Part shown: in pieces, positions 8,038-60,736 of the stretch | How positions within the stretch are numbered: the stretch's first letter is position 1 | How the letters are laid out: each line of letters opens with the position of its first letter | Assembly: GCA_016844745.1 (NCBI GenBank) | Contig: JAERMQ010000009.1 | Span: forward strand, 7,184 to 71,183 | From: Ignavibacteria bacterium | GTDB lineage: Bacteria > Bacteroidota > Ignavibacteria > Kapaibacteriales > UBA2268 | Length of the DNA stretch: 64,000 nucleotides | Direction of reading: 5' to 3' | Translations under genes and position numbers: made by a program | The notes under the pieces: generated by a model | Databases searched by the model: none | Told to the model about the DNA's origin: nothing | Seen by the model: the letters and a program-made list of their open reading frames with translations, nothing else

Positions 8038-11000
8038 TTATTTATTTACTACAAATTTCCTGATTATCATTTCACTTTCATTCTGCAACATAATCAAATA
8101 AATACCATTTGTTATTTTGCTAAGGTCAATTTGCTTTCTATATGTGTCTTCGGTCAGATTAATGTTTTCTTCATATATGGATTCTCCAAGCAAAGTCATT
8201 AATTTTAACTTCATTTTAGAAGGATTTATTGTATTATATTCAATATTCAGGACATTTCCAGTTGGAATCGGATATATTTTTAATTTATTCGCTGTAATTT
8301 GTGTTTCAACTACATCAGTTGTAAAATAATATGGGTCGGAAAATACCGAACAGCCGTTTAAATCCGTATATTTAACTTTGTAAAAGCCTGTTTTTTCTGA
8401 CGTATAATATTGATAAACAGCATAAGTTATTAATGAATCCTTGTAATACCATTGATTACCCGTCGAATAATTCGATGCCAAATCAGTACCGCCACGCGTT
8501 ATAATCGGTTTTTCCGGTAGTTTATTGATAATTATGCTTTGCGAAGTGGAATCTTTAAAACCACTTTGTAGTATTGTTTGAACCACTTTAATCGAACCTG
8601 TTCCTGCTAGACCCCAATTGACTATAATGGAATCTTTGGTATTCGAACCGCTAATGGAGCCTCCTGTCACCGTCCAAACATTAACAGCGCCAGACTTTTT
8701 AGTAGTTTTATAATTCTCAATATCATATTCGCAAGCCGGTGATTTACCTAATATTGTAGGCTTTAATGAATTTGTAATTGTAACGTGTTGAAAAGCAGAA
8801 TCTACACAACCTGTTGCGGTAACAATCTGCAATAAATTAATTGTACCAACTCCAACGCTTCCCCATGTTACGGTTATTGAAGAATTTGTTGTAGAACCGT
8901 TGATAATGCCTCCGACTACCGACCAATTATTGGAAATACTGATATTATTTAATGTTTCATAAGTTTTCGTGCTATTTGGTAAGATAGTGAATTCCCCGGT
9001 TATTGTGGGTGTTGGTAGTTGATTTACTGTAACGGGGATTTCGATTGAGTCCGCACATCCTGTTGATGAAATAGTTTGAATTAACTTGACATTACCTATT
9101 CCGGCATTTCCCCATTTTATTACAACAGAATTTATTGTTGATGAGCCTAAAATTGCACCATTAGTGACTCTCCATCGATTAACTGTTCCCGCTTGAGTAT
9201 CCGTCTTATATTGGGCAACACTTTTAGCACATAAAGAAGTATCTCCGGTAATTTTTGGAACTGGCAGGGGATTGATCATTACTTCAAAATTAGTGGAATC
9301 TTTGCAGCCTTCGTTACTTTTTTGAATTAGGATTACTGTCCCTGAACTGGCTGATGACCATAATATATTGACAAAAGTACCTGATGTCGAACCTTGAATT
9401 GTTCCTCCTATAACATTCCATGTACAAGAAGTAACTGTGGTTATTGTGTTAGATGTAAAAGAGGAAATACTATTCGCACAAACTTTTGTAAGTCCGGTTA
9501 TAACAGGAACAGGCAAAGGACTGATTGTAATTTGCTTAGATGTAGAATCACGGCACCCGGTTAAATTATTTGATTGAATTAAATATATTGTGCCGCTGCG
9601 GGCATTATTCCATAGAATATTTACAAAAGTTGAAGATGCACTGCCCTGTATTGTTCCCTGTATTACCGACCATAGACAGGAAACTCCTACCGATGATGTA
9701 GCGCTATATAAACTTATATTACCGGTACACACAGATGTGCTTCCCGTTATATTCGGCTTTGGTAATGGATTTATTATTATGGCTGTTTTTATTGAATCCC
9801 TGCAATTATTATAAATATTGGTTTGAGTAAGGGTAATAGTGCCGCTTGGAGAACTTCCCCAAGTAACATTAATAAAATTTGAAGAAGTGGAACCGGTGAT
9901 TGTACCGCTTGATACATACCATTGATTTAAAACATCAACAGGTGTAGAGCATGAGTAGATGTATGGATTCGTTTCGCAGACCGATGTCTGACCATTAATT
10001 GAAGGTGATGGCTTAGAAAGAATAGTAATATTACTTCCATTGTCCGAACCTGTAACAATTGGGGAGGAAGAAACAACTCGAATCCTATAACCCGAACCTA
10101 TTGGTGTATTTGTTGGTATCGCTACAGAAATAGTCCCGGAGCTGGTTCCTACAACAGAACCAATCATCACAGGACTACCGAAACTGCCGGATGAATTTGA
10201 TAATTGAACGGTGAAGGTATTGGATGAATTATATGTTCCAGTGATTGTAAATGGAATTACTAAATAATCTCCGGAACAAAAACTACTACCGCTTAAATTT
10301 CCGATATTGATGGATGATACATCCATAAGTCCTATTGTATGATTACCTCCGGACTTAATTTCAGACCATTTAGAACTATTGCCTATCCGAACAGGTGAGC
10401 TTTTACTTGTTGTTGTACCGTCGCCTAATTGTCCAATATTGTTCCAGCCAAAAGCCCACAAAGTACCATCATTTTTGATACTAAATGTACTATTAAAACC
10501 ACATGAAACATTTGCCCAATTTGTACTACTTCCGATTTGAAAAGGGGAATGTTTTTCAGTTATCGTACCATCACCTAATTGTCCATTATTATTTAATCCC
10601 CAAGACCATATAGAGCCGTCACTTTTTTTGGCAATTGAGTGGTAGCTACCGCAGGAAACCAATACCCAATTTGTATCACTACCGATTTGTATTGGGGAAT
10701 TTTTTTGTATAGTTGTTCCATCACCTAATTGACCTGAACCATTACTACCCCATGCCCATAATGTGCCATCGTTTTTAACACCAAGGGAAAAATCAAGTCC
10801 GCCGGAAACAGAGACCCAATTTGTATCGGCTTCGATTTGAACCGGGTAATTTATATCAATGGTTGTACCATCTCCTAGTTGTCCGAAACTATTTAATCCC
10901 CAAGCCCATAAAGAGCCATTACTCTTTATGGCAAGAGAATGGTCGCCACCGCAGGAAACTTTTACCCAATCAGTACTGCTTCCGATTTGCACTGGATTGG

Positions 11001-11445
11001 TTTTCGTTGTAGTAGTGCCATCTCCAAGCTGCCCATCGATATTTAATCCCCAAGCCCATAAAGTGCCATCGTTTTTAATTGCATGAGTATGTGCACTTCC
11101 ACATGATATTGATAGCCAATTTGTTCCGGAACCGATTTGTACCGGGGAAATCTTGTTTGTTGTGCTGCCATCACCTAACTGTCCGTAGTCATTAATTCCC
11201 CATGCCCACAACGAACCGTCACTTTTAATAGCAATGGTAAATTCTTCACCGCAAGAGGATTTAATCCAATTTGTGGCAGCGCCGATTTGCGTTGGCGAGT
11301 ATTTTACATCTGTTGTACCGTCGCCCAACTGTCCATAGTTATTAGCGCCCCATCCAAACAAAGCATAATTATTTTGCGAAAAAGCAAAGAAAGGGATTAG
11401 ACATAATATTATAAGAAATGAAAAGAAAGTTGTCAAGATTTTCAT
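8038..11445 (-). CDS. Large T9SS-secreted protein: N-terminal RCC1-like beta-propeller repeats, about 7 tandem ~80-aa Ig/PKD-like repeats, and a T9SS C-terminal domain
   Basis: Repeated YGQLGDGTT...S.G..H..A motifs (RCC1). Repeated NPLP.P.ITG...W.V.GG.I.GS...V.WG..G.G.I.L.Q....GC.DS modules. C-terminal KIYPIPTGNVLNIEY...GIYLIMLQ sorting domain. Signal peptide present. Confidence 0.75.
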   Translation of the reverse strand: MKILTTFFSFLIILCLIPFFAFSQNNYALFGWGANNYGQLGDGTTDVKYSPTQIGAATNWIKSSCGEEFTIAIKSDGSLWAWGINDYGQLGDGSTTNKISPVQIGSGTNWLSISCGSAHTHAIKNDGTLWAWGLNIDGQLGDGTTTTKTNPVQIGSSTDWVKVSCGGDHSLAIKSNGSLWAWGLNSFGQLGDGTTIDINYPVQIEADTNWVSVSGGLDFSLGVKNDGTLWAWGSNGSGQLGDGTTIQKNSPIQIGSDTNWVLVSCGSYHSIAKKSDGSIWSWGLNNNGQLGDGTITEKHSPFQIGSSTNWANVSCGFNSTFSIKNDGTLWAFGWNNIGQLGDGTTTSKSSPVRIGNSSKWSEIKSGGNHTIGLMDVSSINIGNLSGSSFCSGDYLVIPFTITGTYNSSNTFTVQLSNSSGSFGSPVMIGSVVGTSSGTISVAIPTNTPIGSGYRIRVVSSSPIVTGSDNGSNITILSKPSPSINGQTSVCETNPYIYSCSTPVDVLNQWYVSSGTITGSTSSNFINVTWGSSPSGTITLTQTNIYNNCRDSIKTAIIINPLPKPNITGSTSVCTGNISLYSATSSVGVSCLWSVIQGTIQGSASSTFVNILWNNARSGTIYLIQSNNLTGCRDSTSKQITISPLPVPVITGLTKVCANSISSFTSNTITTVTSCTWNVIGGTIQGSTSGTFVNILWSSASSGTVILIQKSNEGCKDSTNFEVMINPLPVPKITGDTSLCAKSVAQYKTDTQAGTVNRWRVTNGAILGSSTINSVVIKWGNAGIGNVKLIQTISSTGCADSIEIPVTVNQLPTPTITGEFTILPNSTKTYETLNNISISNNWSVVGGIINGSTTNSSITVTWGSVGVGTINLLQIVTATGCVDSAFQHVTITNSLKPTILGKSPACEYDIENYKTTKKSGAVNVWTVTGGSISGSNTKDSIIVNWGLAGTGSIKVVQTILQSGFKDSTSQSIIINKLPEKPIITRGGTDLASNYSTGNQWYYKDSLITYAVYQYYTSEKTGFYKVKYTDLNGCSVFSDPYYFTTDVVETQITANKLKIYPIPTGNVLNIEYNTINPSKMKLKLMTLLGESIYEENINLTEDTYRKQIDLSKITNGIYLIMLQNESEMIIRKFVVNK

Positions 11446-11502: not shown

Positions 11503-11600
11503 GTCTGAACCACTGATTAATCTGATTAAATGATTTCATTGATTATTAAATATACTTTATCTGAGTAATCCATAAATCAGTTTAATCAGTGGTTCAGACG
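11503..11600. repeat. Family C palindromic element (~98 bp, 18-bp terminal inverted repeats gtctgaaccactgattaa), copy 1
   Basis: Read directly. A second full copy lies at 12449-12546, with partial copies at 12270-12302 and 43613-43660. Confidence 0.8.
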
Positions 11601-11617
11601 ATTTGCTACAATTCAAA

Positions 11618-11827
11618 TTATAATGCTATTTTAGAAATGTAGTTATTAATCTTTCTTACATTTCTAATGATAATTTTTTTATCAGTATCCTTCTTTAATT
11701 GCTCAAGCAAATCTTCGAGCATAAACTCAATTCTGGTTTTCTCCCTTGCAAGTGCATAATAAGCCCTGAACTCAGGATTTTGCATCTGCTGTTCCAGATA
11801 TTCATCATGTTTAGTTTTTCTGTTCAT
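11618..11827 (-). CDS. HigA-like antitoxin (putative 'addiction module antidote' type small protein)
   Basis: 69 aa with a NPEFRAYYALAREKTRIEF motif that resembles the antidote-protein family. It lies immediately downstream of a Gp49/HigB-like toxin gene. Confidence 0.5.
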   Translation of the reverse strand: MNRKTKHDEYLEQQMQNPEFRAYYALAREKTRIEFMLEDLLEQLKKDTDKKIIIRNVRKINNYISKIAL

Positions 11828-11872
11828 TTCTTTTATTATTTATATAAAACTTTTTGAATTTTATTGCCTTTT

Positions 11873-12202
11873 CTAATTCACTTCTGGGTGTTTCTTCTGT
11901 TTTTTTAAAAATCCATTTGTAAATATAACCATTTTTTCTCTTTGAAAAAAGTATAATGACCTTGGTATTCTATTTGAATGCCGTACTCTTAATTCAAATA
12001 TACCCTCTTTCAAAAATTTTGATAATTTATTTGATAAATTAATATTATTACTTAGTCTATCTTTCAGTTCCTCTATAGCTGAGATAATTTCTGCTCGTTC
12101 CTGAAGGGTCAAAGAATCTAAAAATTCCTTAAAAGGAATCTTCCCACTCTCAAGTTGATAATAATCTATATCAAAATATTCTACATTAACATAAAATCTA
12201 AT
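11873..12202 (-). CDS. RelE/HigB-like toxin of the phage Gp49-like family; the frame is open to 12202 but has no canonical start codon
   Basis: GIFELRVRHSNRIPRSLYFF...VIFTNGFLKKQKKHP matches the Gp49-like toxin pattern (..ELR....R..YF....ll.GF.KKtqK.P). The annotated Met gives only 79 aa, but the in-frame upstream extension (…SGKIPFKEFLDSLTLQERAEII) is also family-like. No ATG/GTG/TTG occurs in that extension, so there may be a frameshift or a non-canonical start. Confidence 0.55.
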   Translation of the reverse strand: MRFYVNVEYFDIDYYQLESGKIPFKEFLDSLTLQERAEIISAIEELKDRLSNNINLSNKLSKFLKEGIFELRVRHSNRIPRSLYFFQREKMVIFTNGFLKKQKKHPEVN

Positions 12203-12448
12203 TTAAGGTTAATAAAAAATATACAAAACATTCAAACAAATTCAAAGTATCTTTTTCTTTCAACCATGCAATCCTTAAATTCGTTTAATCAGTGGTTCTG
12301 ATGACTTTTTAACTTCTCATCTCAAGTTGTATTTTTATCTCAAATCGCTGATTGTAAGCCACTTGTTTTAACTTCTTAAAGATATTTTAATTGAATTAAT
12401 TTTAATAGCATAAATTTAACCAAGATTTTTTAATAATCCAAATGAAAA

Positions 12449-12546
12449 TTGTCTGAACCACTGATTAATCTGATTAAATGATTTCATTGATTAGAAAAAA
12501 ACTAATCTGTGTAATCCTTTAATCCGTATAATCTGTGATTCGGACA
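12449..12546. repeat. Family C palindromic element, copy 2 (right inverted repeat degenerate)
   Basis: About 90% identical to 11503-11600 over the left ~45 bp. The two copies bracket the HigB/HigA module. Confidence 0.75.
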
Positions 12547-12695
12547 CCTAATCCACTTTTGCAGAAGTGTATTTTTTTCGTAAATTGCTTAGTTATGGTA
12601 TATTAGTAAGGATAATTTTGAAAACGAGAAAAAAGAAGAAGCAAATTTAAATTTCAATAAAAAAAAATAATGATTTATATTAAATTAGGAGAATA

Positions 12696-14126
12696 ATGAA
12701 CCCAGAAAACCCTGCACAGAAAAGCGGCTTCAGAAGCCTGCCGAAAACTTATTGGATTGCAATTATTTTTGAATTTTTCGAACGAGGCTCATACTACGGT
12801 ATGATGAGCATCCTTTCGGTTTACCTTACAGACCAATTGAATTTTTCAAAGGAAGGAGTTGGTGTAATTAAAGGTACAATCCAACCACTTCTCTACTTCT
12901 TACCGATAATCAGCGGAGCCGTTGCTGATAAGCTCGGTTATAGAAAAATGCTTATGGTGGCATTTACACTGCTTTCAGGTGGATATTTCCTTACTTTCGG
13001 TTCCGATTCTTATGTTACTGTATTCCTTGCACTTGTTGTAATGGGAATTGGTGCAGGGTCATTCAAGCCTGTCATTTCAGGTACTATTGCAAAGTTGACA
13101 GATGAAAAGACGAATACCCTGGGTTTTGGAATTTTTTACTGGTCGATTAATCTGGGTGCTTTTCTTTTCCCAATGTTTTTAGTACCTTATTTAAAGTCCT
13201 TTTCCTGGAGCTATGTTATTCTTGCATCTTCTATAACAACCGGATTAATGCTGCTCCCAACGATATTCCTTTATAAGGAACCGCCGAGAGCAGAAATTAA
13301 AAAAGAGCCACTGCTCGTTATCATCAAGGATGTTTTCTCGAAAATGCTCATGGTTATTAAAGATTGGCGTTATATTTTATTTATTTTTATTTATTCCGGC
13401 TTTTGGATTCTTTATTTCCAGATGTTCGATTCGGTGCTATGGTACGTAAATTTATTCGTTGACCCATCAGCGCTCGAAAATTTTGTATTTAATACAACCG
13501 GAATTACCTGGCGTTTCGGTGTTGAGCACGTTACAGTAATTAATGCATTAACGATAATTCTGCTGCAACTTGTCGTATCCTCAATCGTAAGCAAAACAAA
13601 ACCGCTACCGACAATAATAACAGGTATTACCTTGGGTAGCATTGGTATGGGGATTTTGGCAATAAATACTAATATCTGGATTTTCATTATTGGAATAACT
13701 ATTTTTTCAATAGGTGAAATGACCGCACATCCGAAGTATTTATCATATCTTGCACTAATAGCTCCGCCTGACAAAAAGGCGACATATACAGGCTTCGGAT
13801 TTTTATATGGCTTCTTTGGTTCTTTTGTAGGGGGTTATTTGGGAGCATTTCTGTATGTTAGGTTTGTAGATAATCCTATGATTGAATTCATACGGGAAAC
13901 ATTAATTGTCAAATCATCCAATATTGTACTTGCCCATAACGTCAAAATAGGTGAAGCGCTTCAGGCTGCATATAAAATCGGGTTAACTAAAGCCGAAGTT
14001 GCTTTACATGCAAATACATCCGAACTATGGCTGATATTTAGCGGTATAGGAGTTTTGACAATAATCGGATTATTGCTATATCAAAAATTAATTGCTGCGC
14101 CCGGGATAAGGGAGAATCGGAAATAG
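12696..14126 (+). CDS. POT/PTR2-family proton-dependent oligopeptide transporter (MFS)
   Basis: The FFERGSYYGM signature (ExxERFxYYG) is present. 476 aa, multi-TM. Confidence 0.85.
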   Translation: MNPENPAQKSGFRSLPKTYWIAIIFEFFERGSYYGMMSILSVYLTDQLNFSKEGVGVIKGTIQPLLYFLPIISGAVADKLGYRKMLMVAFTLLSGGYFLTFGSDSYVTVFLALVVMGIGAGSFKPVISGTIAKLTDEKTNTLGFGIFYWSINLGAFLFPMFLVPYLKSFSWSYVILASSITTGLMLLPTIFLYKEPPRAEIKKEPLLVIIKDVFSKMLMVIKDWRYILFIFIYSGFWILYFQMFDSVLWYVNLFVDPSALENFVFNTTGITWRFGVEHVTVINALTIILLQLVVSSIVSKTKPLPTIITGITLGSIGMGILAINTNIWIFIIGITIFSIGEMTAHPKYLSYLALIAPPDKKATYTGFGFLYGFFGSFVGGYLGAFLYVRFVDNPMIEFIRETLIVKSSNIVLAHNVKIGEALQAAYKIGLTKAEVALHANTSELWLIFSGIGVLTIIGLLLYQKLIAAPGIRENRK

Positions 14127-14141
14127 ATGAATTAAAACGAA

Positions 14142-14224
14142 CCAAGAGAAACCCCCTAACCCCCTTTAAAAAAGGGGGAAATTCTATCCCCCTTTTTTAA
14201 AGGGGGTTAGGGGGTTTCTCTTGG
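14142..14224. repeat. GC-rich nested 'core' palindrome (ccaagagaaaccccctaaccccc ... gggggttagggggtttctcttgg)
   Basis: Perfect 23-bp outer arms enclosing two ccccc-ttt/aaa-ggggg sub-hairpins. It stands out against roughly 35% GC background. Sits between the POT stop and the next gene start. Confidence 0.85.
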
Positions 14225-14263
14225 TTAAAAGGATGTGAGTATATAACAATCAATAATTTAATA

Positions 14264-25676: not shown

Positions 25677-25917
25677 AAAATGATTCCTTGATATATTGAT
25701 TTAACCTGTTATTTATTCAATTTTACTTATCGTTCTTAATTCAACATTATTACTACGTTATAAGTAATGAATAACAAATTAGTCTGGTATTTGTTACAAT
25801 AGAATTTTTTTTTAAGTGAAGTTCTGAATAATGATGTGTTTCAAATAATATCCTTTCCTATTTGGGATAGAACAAACAAGGATGTTTATTCTACCCTTAA
25901 GTAGGTCAAACATCCCT

Positions 25918-26048
25918 GTTTGACTATATGTTGCATTTCATTTTTGATATGTTTGACTTTTGTTGCATTTCATTTAAGATATGTTTGACTATTTGTTGCA
26001 TTTCATTTTTGATATGTTTGACTATTTGTTGCATTTCAATTAAGATAT
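25918..26048. repeat. Tandem array of 4 x ~33 bp (gtttgactatttgttgcatttcatttttgatat)
   Basis: Four contiguous units, 85-100% identical, with no spacers, so not CRISPR. Preceded by a hairpin ggatgtttattctacccttaagtaggtcaaacatcc. Confidence 0.85.
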
Positions 26049-26186
26049 GATAAAGTTCATTTATAGGGTAGAATCTGACTGGCTAATTATTTTTGGATTT
26101 TGAATCAAGTTGCCAATGACAAAATTTTCTACCTTTTATTTTGAACAATTTATTGAAACAAAAATATATGCAACAATTAACACTTA

Positions 26187-26276
26187 GAGAAATCCCCCCT
26201 ACCCCTTTTTCAAAGGGGGATAAGAAAAATATTCTTCAATCCCCCTTTGAAAAAGGGGGGTAGGGGGGATTTCTCT
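26187..26276. repeat. GC-rich nested core palindrome (gagaaatcccccctacccc…ggggggtaggggggatttctc), 3' of nosY
   Basis: Near-identical to the cores inside the composite elements at 42395-42485 and 48078-48170. Confidence 0.85.
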
Positions 26277-26363
26277 TGAATTTGTCATTTTTTATTTTTA
26301 TTATGCCGAAATTTTGGAGTACAGAATAACAATTTCAAAATAAATGTGATTTATTAAGATAAT

Positions 26364-27182: not shown

Positions 27183-27280
27183 GAGAAATCCCCCCTACCC
27201 CCCGGTTATAGAAGTAGAACATTGAAGTAGAAGTAGAAATAAATCCCCCTTTGAAAAAGGGGGGTAGGGGGGATTTCTTC
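27183..27280. repeat. Core palindrome arms with an inserted 'cggttatagaagtagaacattgaagtagaagtagaa' module, in the nosF-nosY intergenic spacer
   Basis: Read directly. Both the outer arms and the inner ccccctttgaaaaaggggg hairpin are retained. Confidence 0.85.
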
Positions 27281-27301
27281 TAAAATTATCATTTCCAATT
27301 T

Positions 27302-28027
27302 TCAATTATTCCCATTTCCATTTTTATTTGTCAGTAATTTTGAAATAAGCTGCTCTAAATTATCGTAATTCGAATTATCAATCAAGGCATCCAGCTTATC
27401 TTTTAAAATAATTTTCCCGTCGATAATATATGCAAAATTCTCGGCAAAACCTGAAATTTCACCTAATAAGTGGGTTATATAAATTATCGTTTTGCCGGAT
27501 TCTTTTTCGAGTGCCAACAGGTTCTTAAGTTTGCCGGATGAAACCGGGTCGAGTCCTGCCGTTGGTTCGTCTAAAATGTAAATTTCAGGTTGGTACATAA
27601 ATGCCATTACCAATCCTACCTTCTGGCGTGTACCGCCTGATAGATTCCTCATAAATTGTGATGTAAAAGGCTGCAAACCGAAGGTATCCAACAATTCCTC
27701 ATCATTTGCTTGGGTAGAGCTATTGCGGATTTTCTTCACCATTGAAATTACATCCGTTACCCTGAGATTTTCCGGGTACCGTGCAATTTGAGGCATGTAT
27801 CCGATTCTGCTTCGATATTCCGATTGCCGCAAAGCGCTTTTCCCTTCAATCTTAATATCACCGGAATCAATATTTACTAATCCGAGAATTGATTTAATTA
27901 ATGTAGTTTTTCCCGAACCGTTAGGACCTGCAATTGCTGTTACCGCGCCTTTCGGAAAGTAGAGATTTATATCATCCAAAGCTTTGGTTTTGCCGTAGCT
28001 TTTGGAAACCGATTCAAGTTCTATCAT
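27302..28027 (-). CDS. nosF: NosF, ABC transporter ATP-binding protein
   Basis: Walker A GPNGSGKTT, signature LSGGTRQK, Walker B IYILDEP. Overlaps nosD by 4 bp. Confidence 0.85.
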   Translation of the reverse strand: MIELESVSKSYGKTKALDDINLYFPKGAVTAIAGPNGSGKTTLIKSILGLVNIDSGDIKIEGKSALRQSEYRSRIGYMPQIARYPENLRVTDVISMVKKIRNSSTQANDEELLDTFGLQPFTSQFMRNLSGGTRQKVGLVMAFMYQPEIYILDEPTAGLDPVSSGKLKNLLALEKESGKTIIYITHLLGEISGFAENFAYIIDGKIILKDKLDALIDNSNYDNLEQLISKLLTNKNGNGNN

Positions 28028-29259: not shown

Positions 29260-29308
29260 CTATATTAAGTTTTATAATCTTTAAAATTTTTGTAACTTCT
29301 ATTAAAAA

Positions 29309-29424
29309 GAGAAACCCTCTAACCCCCTTTGAAAAAGGGGGAACTCTTCTTCTTCTATTTCTACTTCTACTTCTATGTTCTACTTCTATGTTCTACTTCT
29401 ATAACCGGGGTTAGGGGGTTTCTC
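29309..29424. repeat. Core palindrome arms flanking a (tagaagtagaa)n tract, in the nosL-nosD intergenic spacer, with T-runs on both sides
   Basis: gagaaaccctctaaccccctttgaaaaaggggg…ctacttctacttctatgttctacttctat…ggggttagggggtttctc-tttttt. On the transcribed (minus) strand the hairpin is also followed by ttttt. Confidence 0.85.
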
Positions 29425-29431
29425 TTTTTTC

Positions 29432-30604
29432 TTACTCTTCCAACGCTAACTTTGAAAGTTCGCTCCAGTTCAACGTATCAAATTTCGATTCCAATTTTAA
29501 TTTGGGGATTTCTTCTTTTGATACTAACGATACGGCATTAAGTCCCATTGGGGAATGGAACTCGAGCGAACGGACGTAAGTCGCATGTTCAGCATTTATA
29601 AATACGCCGGGATTTAAGTAATTTATTGTCCACAGAGAATGAATCTTTTCATCTTTCAAATTTTTATCTTTATATGCAATCATACATTCGACAACATCAA
29701 ATTTATGAATTTTTCCTTTATCAGTAATTATTTCCGCACCCCATTTCGAATCAACAATCGTCATCTTGCAGTGAGCACAGGCATCCGAACCGAGTACTAT
29801 CGGCTGTGGCTCCTTTGCACAGCCTGTTACTCCCGATAAAATAACAATCGCTGAAATTACTAATGCTGCAGTGGTTCCGGGTTGTCCACTTTGGACTGAG
29901 GGTTTAGTATTCTTTTTTCTAAAAAGTGATATTATGAAAAGAATTAATGAGAATCCCGCACAATAGGCTCCGAGATAGGGCCACGATATAGCATTGAAAT
30001 TAAGAAGCTGTTTCGAACCAATCAGGGGTGGCTGATATGCCATTCCTGTAATTTTTATAGCTGCTTTCGGATTTAAATTATGCCCGTAATCGTATTCCCA
30101 TAAGTAGAAGTCATACAGTCCATAAATTAATCCTGCTAAAAAAATCACAATCCAAACCGTAGTGATAGCTTTTTTATCGAATATAAAAGCAATAAATCCT
30201 AAAAAGAGCATGAAGCCTATGAAATAAGGCATAATCTTGAGTTCCGGGATCGATTCAGGCTCTATACGCTTCATCCCAATATAATGATTAAGTCCGTTAA
30301 GGCTTTCCAGGTCATGCTCTTTATGACCGGTTATTTTATCTATATGAATATAGATACCCAAACCTTCGGGATACTGAGGAGCTTCCAAAGATATGCTCCA
30401 TATTGGGAGGAAATAAATCGGGATTAGTACTAATATTCCAATGAACATTAGTACTCTTGTTTTGGTTATCATGTGAGTATCAATAAAATTTATAATACTA
30501 AAAAAATAATCCTCTCCTGTCGTAAGCTTGCTTCGGACAAGAGAGGATAAGAAACTTATGACACATACCTGTATAAACCTGTTTTCATATAGGTTTATAC
30601 ACAA
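29432..30604 (-). CDS. nosL: Fused NosB-like polytopic membrane protein (N-terminal ~230 aa) plus NosL copper chaperone lipoprotein domain (C-terminal ~160 aa)
   Basis: The C-terminal part has a lipobox LSGVTGC followed by a NosL-like block (GSDACAHCKMTIVDSKWGAEIITDKGKIHKFDVVECMIAY). The N-terminal part is multi-TM and sits right after nosZ, as nosB does in clade II clusters. There is no internal Met between the two parts, so they are encoded as one ORF. Confidence 0.65.
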   Translation of the reverse strand: MCINLYENRFIQVCVISFLSSLVRSKLTTGEDYFFSIINFIDTHMITKTRVLMFIGILVLIPIYFLPIWSISLEAPQYPEGLGIYIHIDKITGHKEHDLESLNGLNHYIGMKRIEPESIPELKIMPYFIGFMLFLGFIAFIFDKKAITTVWIVIFLAGLIYGLYDFYLWEYDYGHNLNPKAAIKITGMAYQPPLIGSKQLLNFNAISWPYLGAYCAGFSLILFIISLFRKKNTKPSVQSGQPGTTAALVISAIVILSGVTGCAKEPQPIVLGSDACAHCKMTIVDSKWGAEIITDKGKIHKFDVVECMIAYKDKNLKDEKIHSLWTINYLNPGVFINAEHATYVRSLEFHSPMGLNAVSLVSKEEIPKLKLESKFDTLNWSELSKLALEE

Positions 30605-36700: not shown

Positions 36701-36730
36701 AATTATTTAAGTTCCTATCAAAAGAAGAAA

Positions 36731-36835
36731 AACCCCCTAACCCCCGGTTTTAGAAGTAGAACATGGAAGTTGAATATAGAAGTAGAAAAAATTCCCCCTT
36801 TTTCAAAGGGGGTTAGGGGGTTTTTCTTCTTTTGA
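36731..36835. repeat. Core palindrome arms plus a tagaagtagaa module (gaagaaaaaccccctaacccccggttttagaagtagaacatggaag…ccccctttttcaaagggggttagggggtttttcttc)
   Basis: Read directly. Same architecture as 27183-27280. Confidence 0.85.
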
Positions 36836-36909
36836 TTTAAATTAACTATAAATTAGTATCATAAATAAATCTTTTCCAAATAAAATAAAATTCCTAATTA
36901 TTACGTAAT

Positions 36910-42298: not shown

Positions 42299-42598
42299 GT
42301 TCCTGCGGATGAGGCTACGTGAAAAGTCAATAAAATTGTCATCCTGAACTCCAAAATACTAAGAATAATAAAAATAAAAAATGACAAATTCAAGAGAAAT
42401 CCCCCCTACCCCCCTTTTTCAAAGGGGGATAAGAAAAATATTTATAAATCCCCCTTTGAAAAAGGGGGGTAGGGGGGATTTCTTAAACTTGAAATTATTG
42501 AACTTTTTTGAATTAAGAAAAATCTGTCATTGGTAACTTGATTCAGGATACATAAACCGCACTGGGAGGGGATTCCTGTATCCGCAGGAATGATATTC
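42299..42598. repeat. Composite ~300-bp element (outer arms, a 'gtcattctgaac'-type inner arm, GC-rich core palindrome, structured right half containing the conserved loop ccgcactgggag), copy 1
   Basis: Collinear with the elements at 48018-48290 and 60441-60736, all in the same orientation. Begins 24 bp after the stop of the upstream gene. Confidence 0.85.
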
Positions 42599-43515: not shown

Positions 43516-43714
43516 TTAATTGTTAATTGTCAATTGTTAATTTGTCTGAATTAGGATTTTTAGGATTATAAGATTATAGGATAAATAATTCATAATTCAT
43601 AATTCATAATTCGTAATTTTCTGAACCTTGATTTACCTGATTAAATGATTACCATGATTATTTTTTATAATTAGTAATTAGTAATTAGTAATTAGTAATT
43701 AGTAATTAGTAATT
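43516..43714. repeat. Three heptamer microsatellite arrays (taattgt x3-4; cataatt x4; taattag x6) plus a partial family C element at 43613-43660
   Basis: Read directly. Located between the NmrA-like gene start and the 3' end of the 759-aa gene. Confidence 0.85.
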
Positions 43715-48017: not shown

Positions 48018-48290
48018 AAGAATGTCATTCTGAACTCCAAAATAATGGAATTAATAATAATATGCAATAACAAATTCAAGAGAAATCCCCCCTACCCTCC
48101 TTTTTCAAAGGGGGATAAGAAAAATATTCTTCAATCCCCCTTTGAAAAAGGGGGGTAGGGGGGATTTCTCTAAGTTGAAATTTTTGCTAATTTTTGAATC
48201 AAGAAAAATCTGTCATTGGTAACTTGTTTCAGAGTCCAGAAGCAGCATTGGGACTGGAATCTTCACTTCGATTACGAATGACATTCTTCT
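48018..48290. repeat. Composite ~275-bp element, copy 2 (family A arms gaagaatgtcattctgaac / gaatgacattcttc enclosing the GC core and structured right half)
   Basis: Collinear with copies 1 and 3. The core at 48078-48170 is about 98% identical to 26187-26276. Confidence 0.85.
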
Positions 48291-59916: not shown

Positions 59917-60411
59917 ATGATTTTACCTAAAGAGACAAAAAAGATTTTAAAAAAAATTGATTATACTTTAACCGGAAAGTGCTTTGAGCCTGATACTACA
60001 GGGAAAATAAATGAAAATATATTTTCCGGATTATCCGATAAAAATCTGGGGAAACTGGAATTTTTACTTCATAAAATTGCCCCCGAATGTACGATTCAGA
60101 AATTTGTTGCAATGCTTGCTACTGAAATTCAAATGCAAGCACAATGGGATATTCTAAATGCCGCTTCGGAAGACGATGACCTGGATAAAGAGGACGTTGA
60201 AACTGAAGAAGATGAGGATTGGGACGAAGAGGACGAAGATTGGGATGAAGACGACGAAGATTGGGATGAAGATGAAGACGAAGATTGGGATGAAGATGAA
60301 GACGAAGATTGGGAAGATGATGACGATGACGTTGATGATGACGATGACGATGACGTTGATGATGACGTTGATGAAGACGAAGATTGGGAAGATAATGAAG
60401 AAGTAGTTTAA
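59917..60411 (+). CDS. Small protein with an extremely acidic, Trp-punctuated repetitive C-terminus (EDEDWDE repeats, then D/V-rich)
   Basis: A 164-aa ORF. The last ~75 aa are at least 85% D/E, with W every 7-9 residues, encoded by 21-24-bp tandem DNA repeats. The N-terminal 90 aa are non-repetitive. Confidence 0.45.
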   Translation: MILPKETKKILKKIDYTLTGKCFEPDTTGKINENIFSGLSDKNLGKLEFLLHKIAPECTIQKFVAMLATEIQMQAQWDILNAASEDDDLDKEDVETEEDEDWDEEDEDWDEDDEDWDEDEDEDWDEDEDEDWEDDDDDVDDDDDDDVDDDVDEDEDWEDNEEVV

Positions 60412-60440
60412 ATATTTAGGTTGGTTCTTGAAACTCTTTA

Positions 60441-60736
60441 ATTGTCATTCCTGCGAATGAGCTGTGTGAAAAGTCAAAAAAATTGTCATTCTGAAATCCA
60501 AAATACGGAACTTAATAAAAATATGCAATGACAAATTCAAGAGAAACCCCCTAACCCCCTTTGAAAAAGGGGGAATTTTTTGTCCCCCCTTTTTCAAAGG
60601 GGGTTAGGGGGTTTCTCTCTGTTGAAATTGTTGCCATTATTTTAAATCAAGAAAAATCTGTCATTGGTAACTTGATTCAGAATCCATAATCCGCACTGGG
60701 AGTGGGTTCTGAATCAGTTCAGAATGACAATCTTCC
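60441..60736. repeat. Composite ~300-bp element, copy 3
   Basis: Collinear with copies 1 and 2. The core variant is gagaaaccccctaaccccctttgaaaaaggggg…ccccccctttttcaaagggggttagggggtttctc. The right-half hairpin is tgattcagaa-N25-ttctgaatca. Confidence 0.85.

What the first reader, a model, noticed from the sequence alone, without database searches (positions are those of the whole stretch)
11503..12546. A Gp49/HigB-HigA-like toxin-antitoxin module bracketed by two copies of a ~98-bp MITE-like palindrome; the toxin lacks a canonical start
Family C elements have 18-bp terminal inverted repeats (gtctgaaccactgattaa). Full copies lie at 11503-11600 and 12449-12546, and a solo right end sits at 12270-12302 inside the module's promoter. 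They enclose only the two-gene toxin-antitoxin unit, 11618-12202 on the minus strand.

The toxin frame is open for 110 codons and is family-like throughout, yet contains no ATG/GTG/TTG upstream of the Met that would give a 79-aa product.

The layout resembles a composite mobile unit, a toxin-antitoxin module carried between two MITEs. It could also be a toxin-antitoxin module whose promoter was hit by MITE insertions, with a partly decayed toxin. Another partial family C copy lies at 43613-43660.
Basis: partly seen in the sequence, partly recalled or inferred. Interest (0 to 1): 0.55.

Follow-up and report, generated by a model that had tools for sequence, protein, structure and literature searches.

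The report
Decaying toxin-antitoxin pair among palindromic repeats
A broken toxin gene and its intact antidote gene sit in a gene-free stretch that was separately colonised by copies of a widespread hairpin-shaped repeat; the repeats are not a vehicle for the gene pair, but they look like gene-less versions of a small, apparently undescribed selfish element that carries a nuclease-like gene.

Summary
Two ~96-bp palindromes lie at 11503-11599 and 12451-12545, and a solo right end at 12267-12302. They flank a Gp49/HigB-like toxin frame and a 69-aa partner gene on the minus strand.

The composite-transposon reading is not supported:
- Seven other loci of the same toxin-antitoxin family carry none of these repeat ends.
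- In other genomes, pairs of the same repeat 1.2-1.6 kb apart bracket ordinary genes, including ATP-synthase cistrons.
- No target-site duplication flanks single copies or the 1-kb unit.
- The outer end of copy 2 is degenerate.

The toxin is a pseudogene with two lesions. GTT replaces the relatives' conserved TTG start. The antitoxin is intact, and it is a three-helix protein with no helix-turn-helix, so it is not HigA-like. Toxin decay or loss with a kept antitoxin recurs in relatives.

The repeat's 18-mer end occurs in more than 100 genome stretches, mostly Bacteroidota, Ignavibacteriota and Patescibacteria. Versions of about 0.5 kb carry a GxxExxY (PD-(D/E)XK) gene between the same ends. 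More distant GxxExxY genes are bracketed by different inverted repeats. This suggests a nuclease-repeat partnership that I could not find described.

The parts
11503..11599 (.). Palindromic repeat, copy 1: complete, with a perfect 18-bp terminal inverted repeat. It lies 18 nt downstream of the antitoxin stop and 58 nt upstream of the start of the next minus-strand gene (8038-11445).
   Evidence: hairpin -40.9 kcal/mol, z -9.6; both ends found by a profile built from other genomes, E about 1e-10
11618..11827 (-). Intact antitoxin-position gene of 69 aa. It is a three-helix protein of an uncharacterised family that is conserved downstream of Gp49 toxins. It is identical to NCBI 'hypothetical protein HW421_921' of an Ignavibacteria bacterium MAG.
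   Evidence: 15 homologues, 74-100% identity, no Pfam; pLDDT 92.3; helices 6-14, 18-45, 50-68; no PDB match at E <= 0.001
11811..12190 (-). Toxin pseudogene of the Gp49/HigB-like RelE superfamily. The codon homologous to the relatives' TTG start is GTT (12190-12188). One base is missing between 11909 and 11908. As a result the conserved C-terminal 'KKTEETPRSELEKAIKFKKFYINNK...' is out of frame, and the frame as it stands stops at 11875-11873. Once restored, the gene would end at TAA 11813-11811 and overlap the antitoxin start by 17 nt, as in relatives.
   Evidence: single-column gap against three homologues; restored protein 65.3 bits, profile 1-87/90, against 52.9 bits, 1-79/90
12218..12245 (-). 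Promoter-like site (TTGAAT, 16 nt, TATATT) just upstream of the toxin frame. It is a consensus match only.
   Evidence: 9 of 12 matches; such sites are no more frequent here than in shuffles
12267..12302 (.). Solo right end of the repeat family, upstream of the promoter-like site. No left half is present.
   Evidence: 2 mismatches in the 18-mer; E 2.4e-5
12451..12545 (.). Palindromic repeat, copy 2. The left 43 nt are identical to copy 1. The right end is degenerate (GTCCGAATCACAGATTAT against GTCTGAACCACTGATTAA). It ends 150 nt upstream of the peptide-transporter gene start (12696).
   Evidence: -34.1 kcal/mol; right end not found by the profile
43543..43665 (.). Two degenerate left ends of the family in tandem, followed by a (TAATTAG)n run. 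They are far from any toxin-antitoxin module.
   Evidence: (D13, 66%); below threshold

Best explanation
The locus is a decaying type II toxin-antitoxin module whose surroundings were colonised independently by at least three insertions of a widespread palindromic repeat.

**Shown.**
- The toxin belongs to the Gp49/HigB-like family. It cannot be made in full, because it has lost the conserved start codon and carries a 1-nt deletion that removes the conserved C-terminal 26 residues.
- The small helical partner gene is intact.

**Inferred.**
- The antitoxin survives as an orphan, possibly still repressing its own promoter or neutralising paralogous toxins. This is the usual end state of such modules.
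- The repeats are not a transposition vehicle for the module. They are gene-less members of a repeat family that lands in intergenic DNA, between cistrons, and even in frame inside genes.
- Local clustering is typical of the family, up to tandem arrays. This is why two and a half copies lie within 1 kb.

**Origin of the repeats.** The same ends enclose a GxxExxY PD-(D/E)XK nuclease-like gene in versions of about 0.5 kb. Other GxxExxY subfamilies have their own inverted repeats. The most likely mechanism is therefore that a GxxExxY protein recognises the periodic TGATT motifs of the ends and mobilises or maintains both the gene-bearing and the gene-less copies in trans. This is inferred and untested.

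**When transcribed.** Each copy would form a long RNA hairpin able to end or process transcripts. This is inferred by analogy with 23S rRNA intervening sequences.
For: **Toxin family and lesions.**
- Pfam Gp49, E 3.8e-14. A profile of the family hits HigB 6af3 at E 2.8e-10.
- Three relatives (L115, L116, L129) start with TTG exactly 15 codons before the conserved Gly. The window has GTT there.
- The DNA alignment shows one missing base against all three aligned homologues at GGATTT[A]TT.
- Restoring that base raises the Gp49 score from 52.9 to 65.3 bits and extends profile coverage from 79 to 87 of 90 positions.
- An independent Logan assembly of run SRR13434397 is identical over 11516-12477.

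**Antitoxin.** It is 74-100% conserved in 15 proteins.

**Recurrent toxin decay.** The toxin is frameshifted in L118, N-terminally truncated in L119 and absent in L130. It is intact in L115, L116, L117 and L129.

**Repeats and module are independent.**
- No family ends occur in the seven other toxin-antitoxin loci.
- Repeat pairs 1.2-1.6 kb apart bracket atpF/atpH and atpA, a photolyase and a histidine kinase elsewhere.
- 36 complete copies show no target-site duplication above chance.

**Family breadth.** More than 112 genome stretches hold the exact 18-mer.

**Link to GxxExxY.**
- All 8 GxxExxY genes in the loci searched abut family ends, or visibly related end variants in the case of L125.
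- L125 was found by protein alone, not through the 18-mer.
- Three of four more distant GxxExxY genes on plasmid records are bracketed by different 16-30 nt inverted repeats.
Against: - No close relative of the source genome was available. The nearest transporter homologues are 73% identical or less and are not syntenic. No empty site could therefore be shown, and the order of events is inferred.
- All four significant family ends in 64 kb lie within 1 kb around the module. That clustering is not fully explained.
- The layout [complete repeat][cargo][right end] also occurs around GxxExxY genes (L038, L045, L125). Some capture event is therefore not excluded.
- Mobilisation by GxxExxY rests on association and co-variation only. 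No enzymatic or transposition evidence exists.
- Only about 64 kb of the genome was visible, so it is unknown whether this genome has a GxxExxY gene with matching ends.
Confidence: 0.72

Rival explanations
1. Composite mobile unit. The two complete repeats act together as the ends of a 1.05-kb transposon that carries the toxin-antitoxin module as cargo.
For: Two copies in the same orientation flank only the module. Their left 43 nt are identical, and 11 nt of the left flanks are similar.
Against: - No direct repeat flanks the unit (AATATT against ACCTAA).
- No target-site duplication exists in the family at all.
- The outer right end of copy 2 is degenerate and is not recognised by the family profile.
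- Seven other loci of this toxin-antitoxin family have no such ends.
- The same spacing brackets housekeeping genes elsewhere.
Confidence: 0.07
2. Cargo swap. The 800-bp stretch 11503-12302 is a single element of the GxxExxY type in which the toxin-antitoxin module replaced the nuclease gene. It runs from the left end at 11503 to the solo right end at 12302.
For: The layout [complete repeat][gene][right end] recurs around GxxExxY genes in L038, L045 and L125, and in a looser form in L017, where the gene is followed by left-type ends.
Against: - In all those cases the gene reads from left end to right end and runs into the right end. Here the module is in the opposite orientation, with about 65 nt of unrelated DNA before the solo end.
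- No other locus of the toxin-antitoxin family lies in such an element.
Confidence: 0.08
3. The toxin is still made. This would need initiation at a non-standard codon (GTT, ATT or ATA) or at TTG 12112, together with slippage on the T5A7 run to recover the C-terminus. The module would then be a weakly expressed but live system.
For: The frame stays open and family-like for 109 residues. The deletion lies beside a T5A7 run, a type of tract where slippage is known from my own knowledge.
Against: - Two independent, rare events would be needed.
- Relatives have neither feature.
- Relatives show outright toxin decay and loss.
- The gene caller did not call the toxin on the Logan contig.
Confidence: 0.08
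4. The toxin lesions are sequencing or assembly errors, and the gene is intact in the organism.
For: The source is a metagenome-assembled genome, and the deletion lies next to homopolymers.
Against: - A separate Logan assembly of run SRR13434397 gives the identical 962 bases.
- The missing base is an A between T runs, not a change in homopolymer length.
- The start-codon change is a substitution, not an indel.
Confidence: 0.04

Closest known systems
HigBA-type type II toxin-antitoxin modules with a Gp49 (PF05973) toxin
   Same: The toxin frame matches Gp49 and solved HigB structures. The toxin gene comes first, and the small partner gene overlaps its end, as in relatives.
   Different: - The toxin is a pseudogene with no start codon and a frameshift.
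- The partner has no XRE helix-turn-helix and no known family. It is a 69-aa three-helix protein.
Bacterial MITEs (for example Correia elements, or the IS982-derived Cardinium MITE of PMC9769881)
   Same: The repeat is short and non-coding, has terminal inverted repeats, occurs in multiple copies, is mostly intergenic, and forms a hairpin.
   Different: - No target-site duplication in 36 copies.
- No transposase-encoding parent was found. The only gene-bearing relatives encode a 110-130-aa PD-(D/E)XK-like protein.
- The exact 18-mer end is shared across phyla.
REP/BIME and REPIN-RAYT systems, and Rickettsia palindromic elements (recalled from my own knowledge)
   Same: - Palindromic repeats scattered between genes and within operons, and clustered or tandem.
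- A small associated protein gene flanked by the repeats, like a RAYT.
- In-frame insertions in proteins, like Rickettsia elements.
   Different: - The associated protein is of the GxxExxY / PD-(D/E)XK type, not a HUH Y1 transposase.
- The repeats are about 95-130 bp with periodic TGATT motifs.
- The associated gene is itself multi-copy and lies inside the repeat unit.
23S rRNA intervening sequences carrying an ORF (Coxiella, Leptospira; PMC4990558)
   Same: This compares with the gene-bearing version of about 0.5 kb. Both have terminal inverted repeats that form a stem, a single ORF of about 125 aa in the loop, and short tandem repeats just before the ORF start. The intervening sequence is described as a selfish element of unknown mobility.
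   Different: - The element here lies in intergenic or inter-cistronic DNA, not in rRNA.
- Its ORF is GxxExxY, not the four-helix S23p protein.
- RNase III processing has not been tested here.

Membership tests
Type II toxin-antitoxin, Gp49/HigB-like toxin (PF05973) | Toxin sequence matches the family profile | tested here: met
   Gp49 E 3.8e-14 as it stands and 5.3e-18 when restored. HigB 6af3 E 2.8e-10 with the family profile.
Type II toxin-antitoxin, Gp49/HigB-like toxin (PF05973) | Complete, translatable toxin gene | tested here: not met
   GTT sits at the conserved TTG start position. A 1-nt deletion puts the last 26 residues out of frame.
Type II toxin-antitoxin, Gp49/HigB-like toxin (PF05973) | Adjacent small partner gene, conserved as a pair | tested here: met
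   The same 66-69-aa partner follows the toxin in L115, L116, L117 and L129.
Type II toxin-antitoxin, Gp49/HigB-like toxin (PF05973) | Toxicity, and neutralisation by the partner | not testable with these tools
   Needs expression experiments.
HigA / XRE-family antitoxin | Helix-turn-helix DNA-binding domain of the XRE type | tested here: not met
   No Pfam or NCBIfam hit. The profile finds nothing in the PDB. The AlphaFold model has three helices and no significant structural match.
MITE (non-autonomous DDE-transposon derivative) | Short, non-coding, with terminal inverted repeats | tested here: met
   95-97 bp, with 18-36 bp inverted repeats.
MITE (non-autonomous DDE-transposon derivative) | Target-site duplication | tested here: not met
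   36 complete copies, all offsets from 0 to 5 and lengths from 2 to 7: counts at chance level.
MITE (non-autonomous DDE-transposon derivative) | Parent insertion sequence with the same ends that encodes a transposase | tested here: inconclusive
   No transposase lies between long-range end pairs. The only gene-bearing members encode GxxExxY (TIGR04256, PF13366), a protein of unknown function (PMC3424549).
Composite transposon | Two functional flanking elements with intact outer ends | tested here: not met
   The outer right end of copy 2 has 4 mismatches in the 18-mer (5 counting the adjacent inner base) and is missed by the family profile.
Composite transposon | Duplication flanking the whole unit, or the unit present at other sites | tested here: not met
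   The flanks differ. Seven other loci of the toxin-antitoxin family lack the ends. No close relative was available for an empty-site test.
ORF-bearing palindromic element (like a 23S intervening sequence) | Inverted repeats enclosing one small ORF | tested here: met
   This is met for relatives of the repeat, not for the window copies: L031 3946-4417, L106 2624-3150, L132, L133 and L134.
ORF-bearing palindromic element (like a 23S intervening sequence) | Excision of the stem-loop from RNA by RNase III | not testable with these tools
   Only hairpin predictions are available. The outer stem shows no excess of compensatory changes.

The most novel reading that the evidence does not exclude
The 'family C' palindromes may be gene-less derivatives of a so far undescribed class of very small selfish elements, about 0.45-0.55 kb long.

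- Their only gene is a GxxExxY PD-(D/E)XK nuclease-like protein, set between subfamily-specific inverted repeats built from periodic short motifs.
- The class is spread across Bacteroidota, Ignavibacteriota, Patescibacteria, Bdellovibrionota and others.
- Copies sit without a target-site duplication between cistrons, at ORF ends and in frame inside genes.
- The nuclease would be the mobilising or maintaining factor. That would be a nuclease-based counterpart of the REPIN-RAYT partnership.
Probability: 0.3. Interest if true: 0.7.

Novelty: new member of a known kind. Interest (0 to 1): 0.38.

Why it matters
The toxin-antitoxin part is an ordinary case. A module has lost its toxin and kept its antitoxin, and the apparent 'carriage' between repeats is an accident of repeat density.

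Two by-products may matter more.
- Gp49 toxins in this lineage pair with a small helical protein of no known family. This extends the range of antitoxins for HigB-like toxins.
- The repeat links to GxxExxY proteins. This is a large family of unknown function that NCBI annotates under that name. Each subfamily sits between its own inverted repeats and has gene-less copies. That gives a testable function for the family: recognition or cleavage of its own flanking repeats. It would also explain a common class of intergenic hairpins in Bacteroidota and their relatives.

Tried and rejected
- **Empty-site comparison in relatives.** The nearest homologues of the flanking transporter are 73% identical or less, and their neighbourhoods are not syntenic. 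The single metagenome scan was lost to a tool error.
- **Rfam.** Only sub-threshold plant and animal microRNA-precursor models match, which reflects generic long hairpins.
- **Transposase search.** Nothing lies between distant end pairs in L005, L008, L031, L045, L081 and L114.
- **Target-site duplication scan.** Nothing above chance.
- **Compensatory changes in the outer stem.** 3 observed against 7.2 expected. The test is biased because one end was selected as exact, so it gives no support for selection on structure.
- **Reading-frame bias of ORFs that run into the left end.** 10 of 18 fall in one frame, which is suggestive only.
- **Literature.** Searches for the end sequence, GxxExxY, PF13366 and MITEs in Bacteroidetes found no description of this family. 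The Cardinium MITE of PMC9769881 is IS982-derived and unrelated. The library is incomplete, so prior description cannot be excluded.
- **Fold of the antitoxin.** Foldseek returned only generic helical hairpins such as CsoR, at E of 0.9 or more.
- **Promoter scan.** Consensus matches are no more frequent than in shuffles.

Full report
**1. What is there**

The source is a metagenome-assembled Ignavibacteria bacterium. The 69-aa gene product and the neighbouring transporter are identical to NCBI proteins on a 72,084-nt contig.

Between a minus-strand gene for a 1135-aa RCC1-repeat protein (8038-11445) and a plus-strand peptide-transporter gene (12696-14126) lie, in order:
- a 97-bp palindrome, 11503-11599;
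- a 69-aa gene, 11618-11827, minus strand;
- an open frame without a start codon, 11873-12202, minus strand;
- a solo right end of the palindrome, 12267-12302;
- a second palindrome, 12451-12545.

The 18-mer end occurs four times in the window, against 0.05 expected. Both complete copies fold as long hairpins with z-scores near -9. A profile of ends built only from other genomes finds four ends in the 64 kb, all within this 1-kb stretch. The right end of copy 2 and the copy near 43.6 kb are too degenerate to score.

**2. The toxin is a pseudogene and the partner is not HigA**

The open frame matches Pfam Gp49 (E 3.8e-14). A profile of it with its homologues hits solved HigB toxins (6af3, E 2.8e-10).

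The toxin carries two lesions.
- **Lost start.** The three relatives L115, L116 and L129 start with TTG exactly 15 codons before the conserved Gly of the '(E/D)SG' motif. L117 starts with ATG a few codons further upstream. The window has GTT at the conserved TTG position, 12190-12188.
- **Frameshift.** A DNA alignment with three homologues shows one missing base at GGATTT[A]TT, between 11909 and 11908. Downstream of it, the conserved C-terminus 'KKTEETPRSELEKAIKFKKFYINNK' is encoded in the +1 frame.

Restoring that base raises the Gp49 score from 52.9 to 65.3 bits and extends profile coverage from 79 to 87 of 90 positions. It also makes the toxin overlap the partner's start by 17 nt, as in relatives.

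A separate Logan assembly of run SRR13434397 is identical over 11516-12477. An assembly error is therefore unlikely.

The partner gene is intact and 74-100% conserved in 15 proteins. It has no Pfam, NCBIfam or PDB sequence match. The AlphaFold model is confident (pLDDT 92.3) and shows three helices with no helix-turn-helix and no significant structural neighbour.

Among the eight loci of this family that I read:
- the toxin is intact in four (L115, L116, L117, L129);
- it is frameshifted in L118;
- it is N-terminally truncated in L119;
- it is absent in L130;
- it is doubly damaged in the window.

Loss of the toxin with retention of the antitoxin is thus recurrent.

**3. The repeats are not a vehicle for the module**

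- None of the seven other loci of the family has any end of the repeat family.
- The exact 18-mer occurs in more than 112 genome stretches. They are mostly Bacteroidota (Chitinophagales, Cytophagales, Saprospirales), Ignavibacteriota including Melioribacter, Patescibacteria and Bdellovibrionales. Roughly 15-20 hits are chance or coding matches that lack the periodic TGATT motif.
- Complete copies are 58-235 bp, mostly about 95-130 bp. They form tandem arrays (L017) and often lie in successive intergenic gaps.
- Pairs 1.2-1.6 kb apart bracket ordinary genes: atpF/atpH and atpA in a Bdellovibrionales genome (L043), a photolyase and a DUF1801 gene in Cytophaga aurantiaca (L062), and a histidine kinase (L085).
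- Thirty-six complete copies show no target-site duplication at any offset or length.
- The 1.05-kb unit has none either, and its outer right end is degenerate.

The bracketing is therefore best read as an accident of a repeat family that clusters locally.

**4. What the repeat is**

In the loci searched, every one of the eight GxxExxY genes (TIGR04256, E 7.3e-36; Pfam PDDEXK_3, E 3.4e-38) lies directly between or beside family ends, or, in L125, beside visibly related end variants.

- Clean examples are L031 3946-4417 (472 bp) and L106 2624-3150 (527 bp). There the ORF starts in the last ATGATT motif of the left end and reads into the right end.
- These proteins are 62-92% identical across distant phyla.
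- A homologue found by protein alone in a viral contig (L125) has variant ends of the same kind.
- More distant GxxExxY genes on plasmid records, 35-46% identical, are bracketed by different inverted repeats: 28 nt of a CACAGAG-type motif in Bernardetia (L132), 30 nt in Bacteroides finegoldii (L133), and 16 nt in Treponema (L134).

Inverted repeats that change with the protein subfamily are what a protein-DNA recognition pair would show. The window's palindromes are thus most simply gene-less versions of the TGATT-type element.

Pfam lists the family's function as unknown and notes multiple transfers (PMC3424549).

The closest described architecture is the ORF-bearing 23S rRNA intervening sequence (PMC4990558). 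That element is about 430 nt, has an inverted-repeat stem with one small ORF in the loop, has tandem short repeats before the start codon, and is excised by RNase III.

I found no paper describing the present family. The library is incomplete.

**5. Mechanism, with levels of support**

*Shown:*
- the toxin lesions;
- the intact antitoxin;
- the independence of module and repeats in other loci;
- the absence of a target-site duplication;
- the association of the ends with GxxExxY genes.

*Inferred:*
- The antitoxin persists as an orphan.
- The repeats arrived by separate insertions or local spread.
- A GxxExxY protein acts on the ends in trans.
- Transcribed copies act as RNA hairpins.

The outer stem shows no excess of compensatory changes. 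This points to conservation of sequence for a protein, rather than of structure, although the test is biased.

**6. What remains open**

- Why all four scorable ends in 64 kb lie around this module.
- Whether the layout [complete repeat][cargo][right end] reflects a cargo swap. The same layout is seen around GxxExxY genes in L038, L045 and L125. I give this reading 0.08, because the module is in the opposite orientation and no other locus of the family lies in such an element.

**7. Verdict**

The composite-transposon reading is not supported. The 'decayed module hit by repeats' reading is supported and sharpened.

The finding as given is ordinary. The repeat's link to GxxExxY genes is the part worth following.

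Noticed in passing
L031 5428-6738, L045 1839-3236, L077 (around 6332, minus strand): Copies of the same palindrome are translated in frame inside type I restriction specificity (HsdS-like) proteins. They add a peptide such as 'SEPLINDDLLDDLDLKNKKSGKSFNQKNHSSDN', which recalls Rickettsia palindromic elements.
   Followed up: partly
L043 4904-4981, 6289-6388, 7883-7982: Three copies sit between cistrons of an ATP-synthase operon in a Bdellovibrionales genome. The stop codon of atpB lies inside the repeat (tail '...QNH*').
   Followed up: partly
18 loci listed: When a long ORF runs into a left end, it is stopped within the repeat. In 10 of 18 cases this happens in the frame that gives a '..LNH*' tail. 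All three frames meet a stop early. Several right ends abut the next gene's ATG directly ('CAGACAATG').
   Followed up: partly
window 14140-14226, and 26204-26304, 27184-27312, 29280-29434, 36722-36849, 42365-42509, 48047-48195, 60513-60646: A second, more abundant palindromic repeat family has a G/C-rich core (CCCCCTTTGAAAAAGGGGGGTAGGGGGG). It includes a perfect 40-nt inverted repeat at 14140-14226.
   Followed up: no
window 25917-26059: Four tandem copies of a unit of about 33 nt (TGTTTGACTAT.TGTTGCATTTCATTT..GATA), iteron-like in appearance.
   Followed up: no
window 11408-11436 (minus strand): A 12-of-12 match to the sigma-70 consensus (TTGACA, 17 nt, TATAAT) lies inside the first codons of the 1135-aa gene. 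It is probably chance in AT-rich coding sequence.
   Followed up: no
window 10348-11375 and 60202-60414: Coding tandem repeats. The first is 150-nt RCC1-type units in the large protein, whose C-terminus looks, by eye only, like a type IX secretion sorting domain. The second is an acidic Asp/Glu/Trp-rich repeat near 60.2 kb.
   Followed up: no
L118 4950-6210, L119 5113-6267: Two Gp49-type modules lie in tandem next to an MmeI-like restriction gene. The second toxin is frameshifted or truncated, while its antitoxin is intact.
   Followed up: partly
L001, L002 (Logan contigs of SRR13434397): The short-read assembly breaks exactly inside the shared left halves of the two palindromes (contigs 11516-12477 and 12464-14169). 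This shows that the repeat is multi-copy enough to fragment assemblies of this genome.
   Followed up: yes
L116 1205-1247: The contig of a related toxin-antitoxin locus ends in a different palindrome (TTAACCATACCCTTAAGGGTATGGTTAA). Such modules may often sit in repeat-rich gaps.
   Followed up: no
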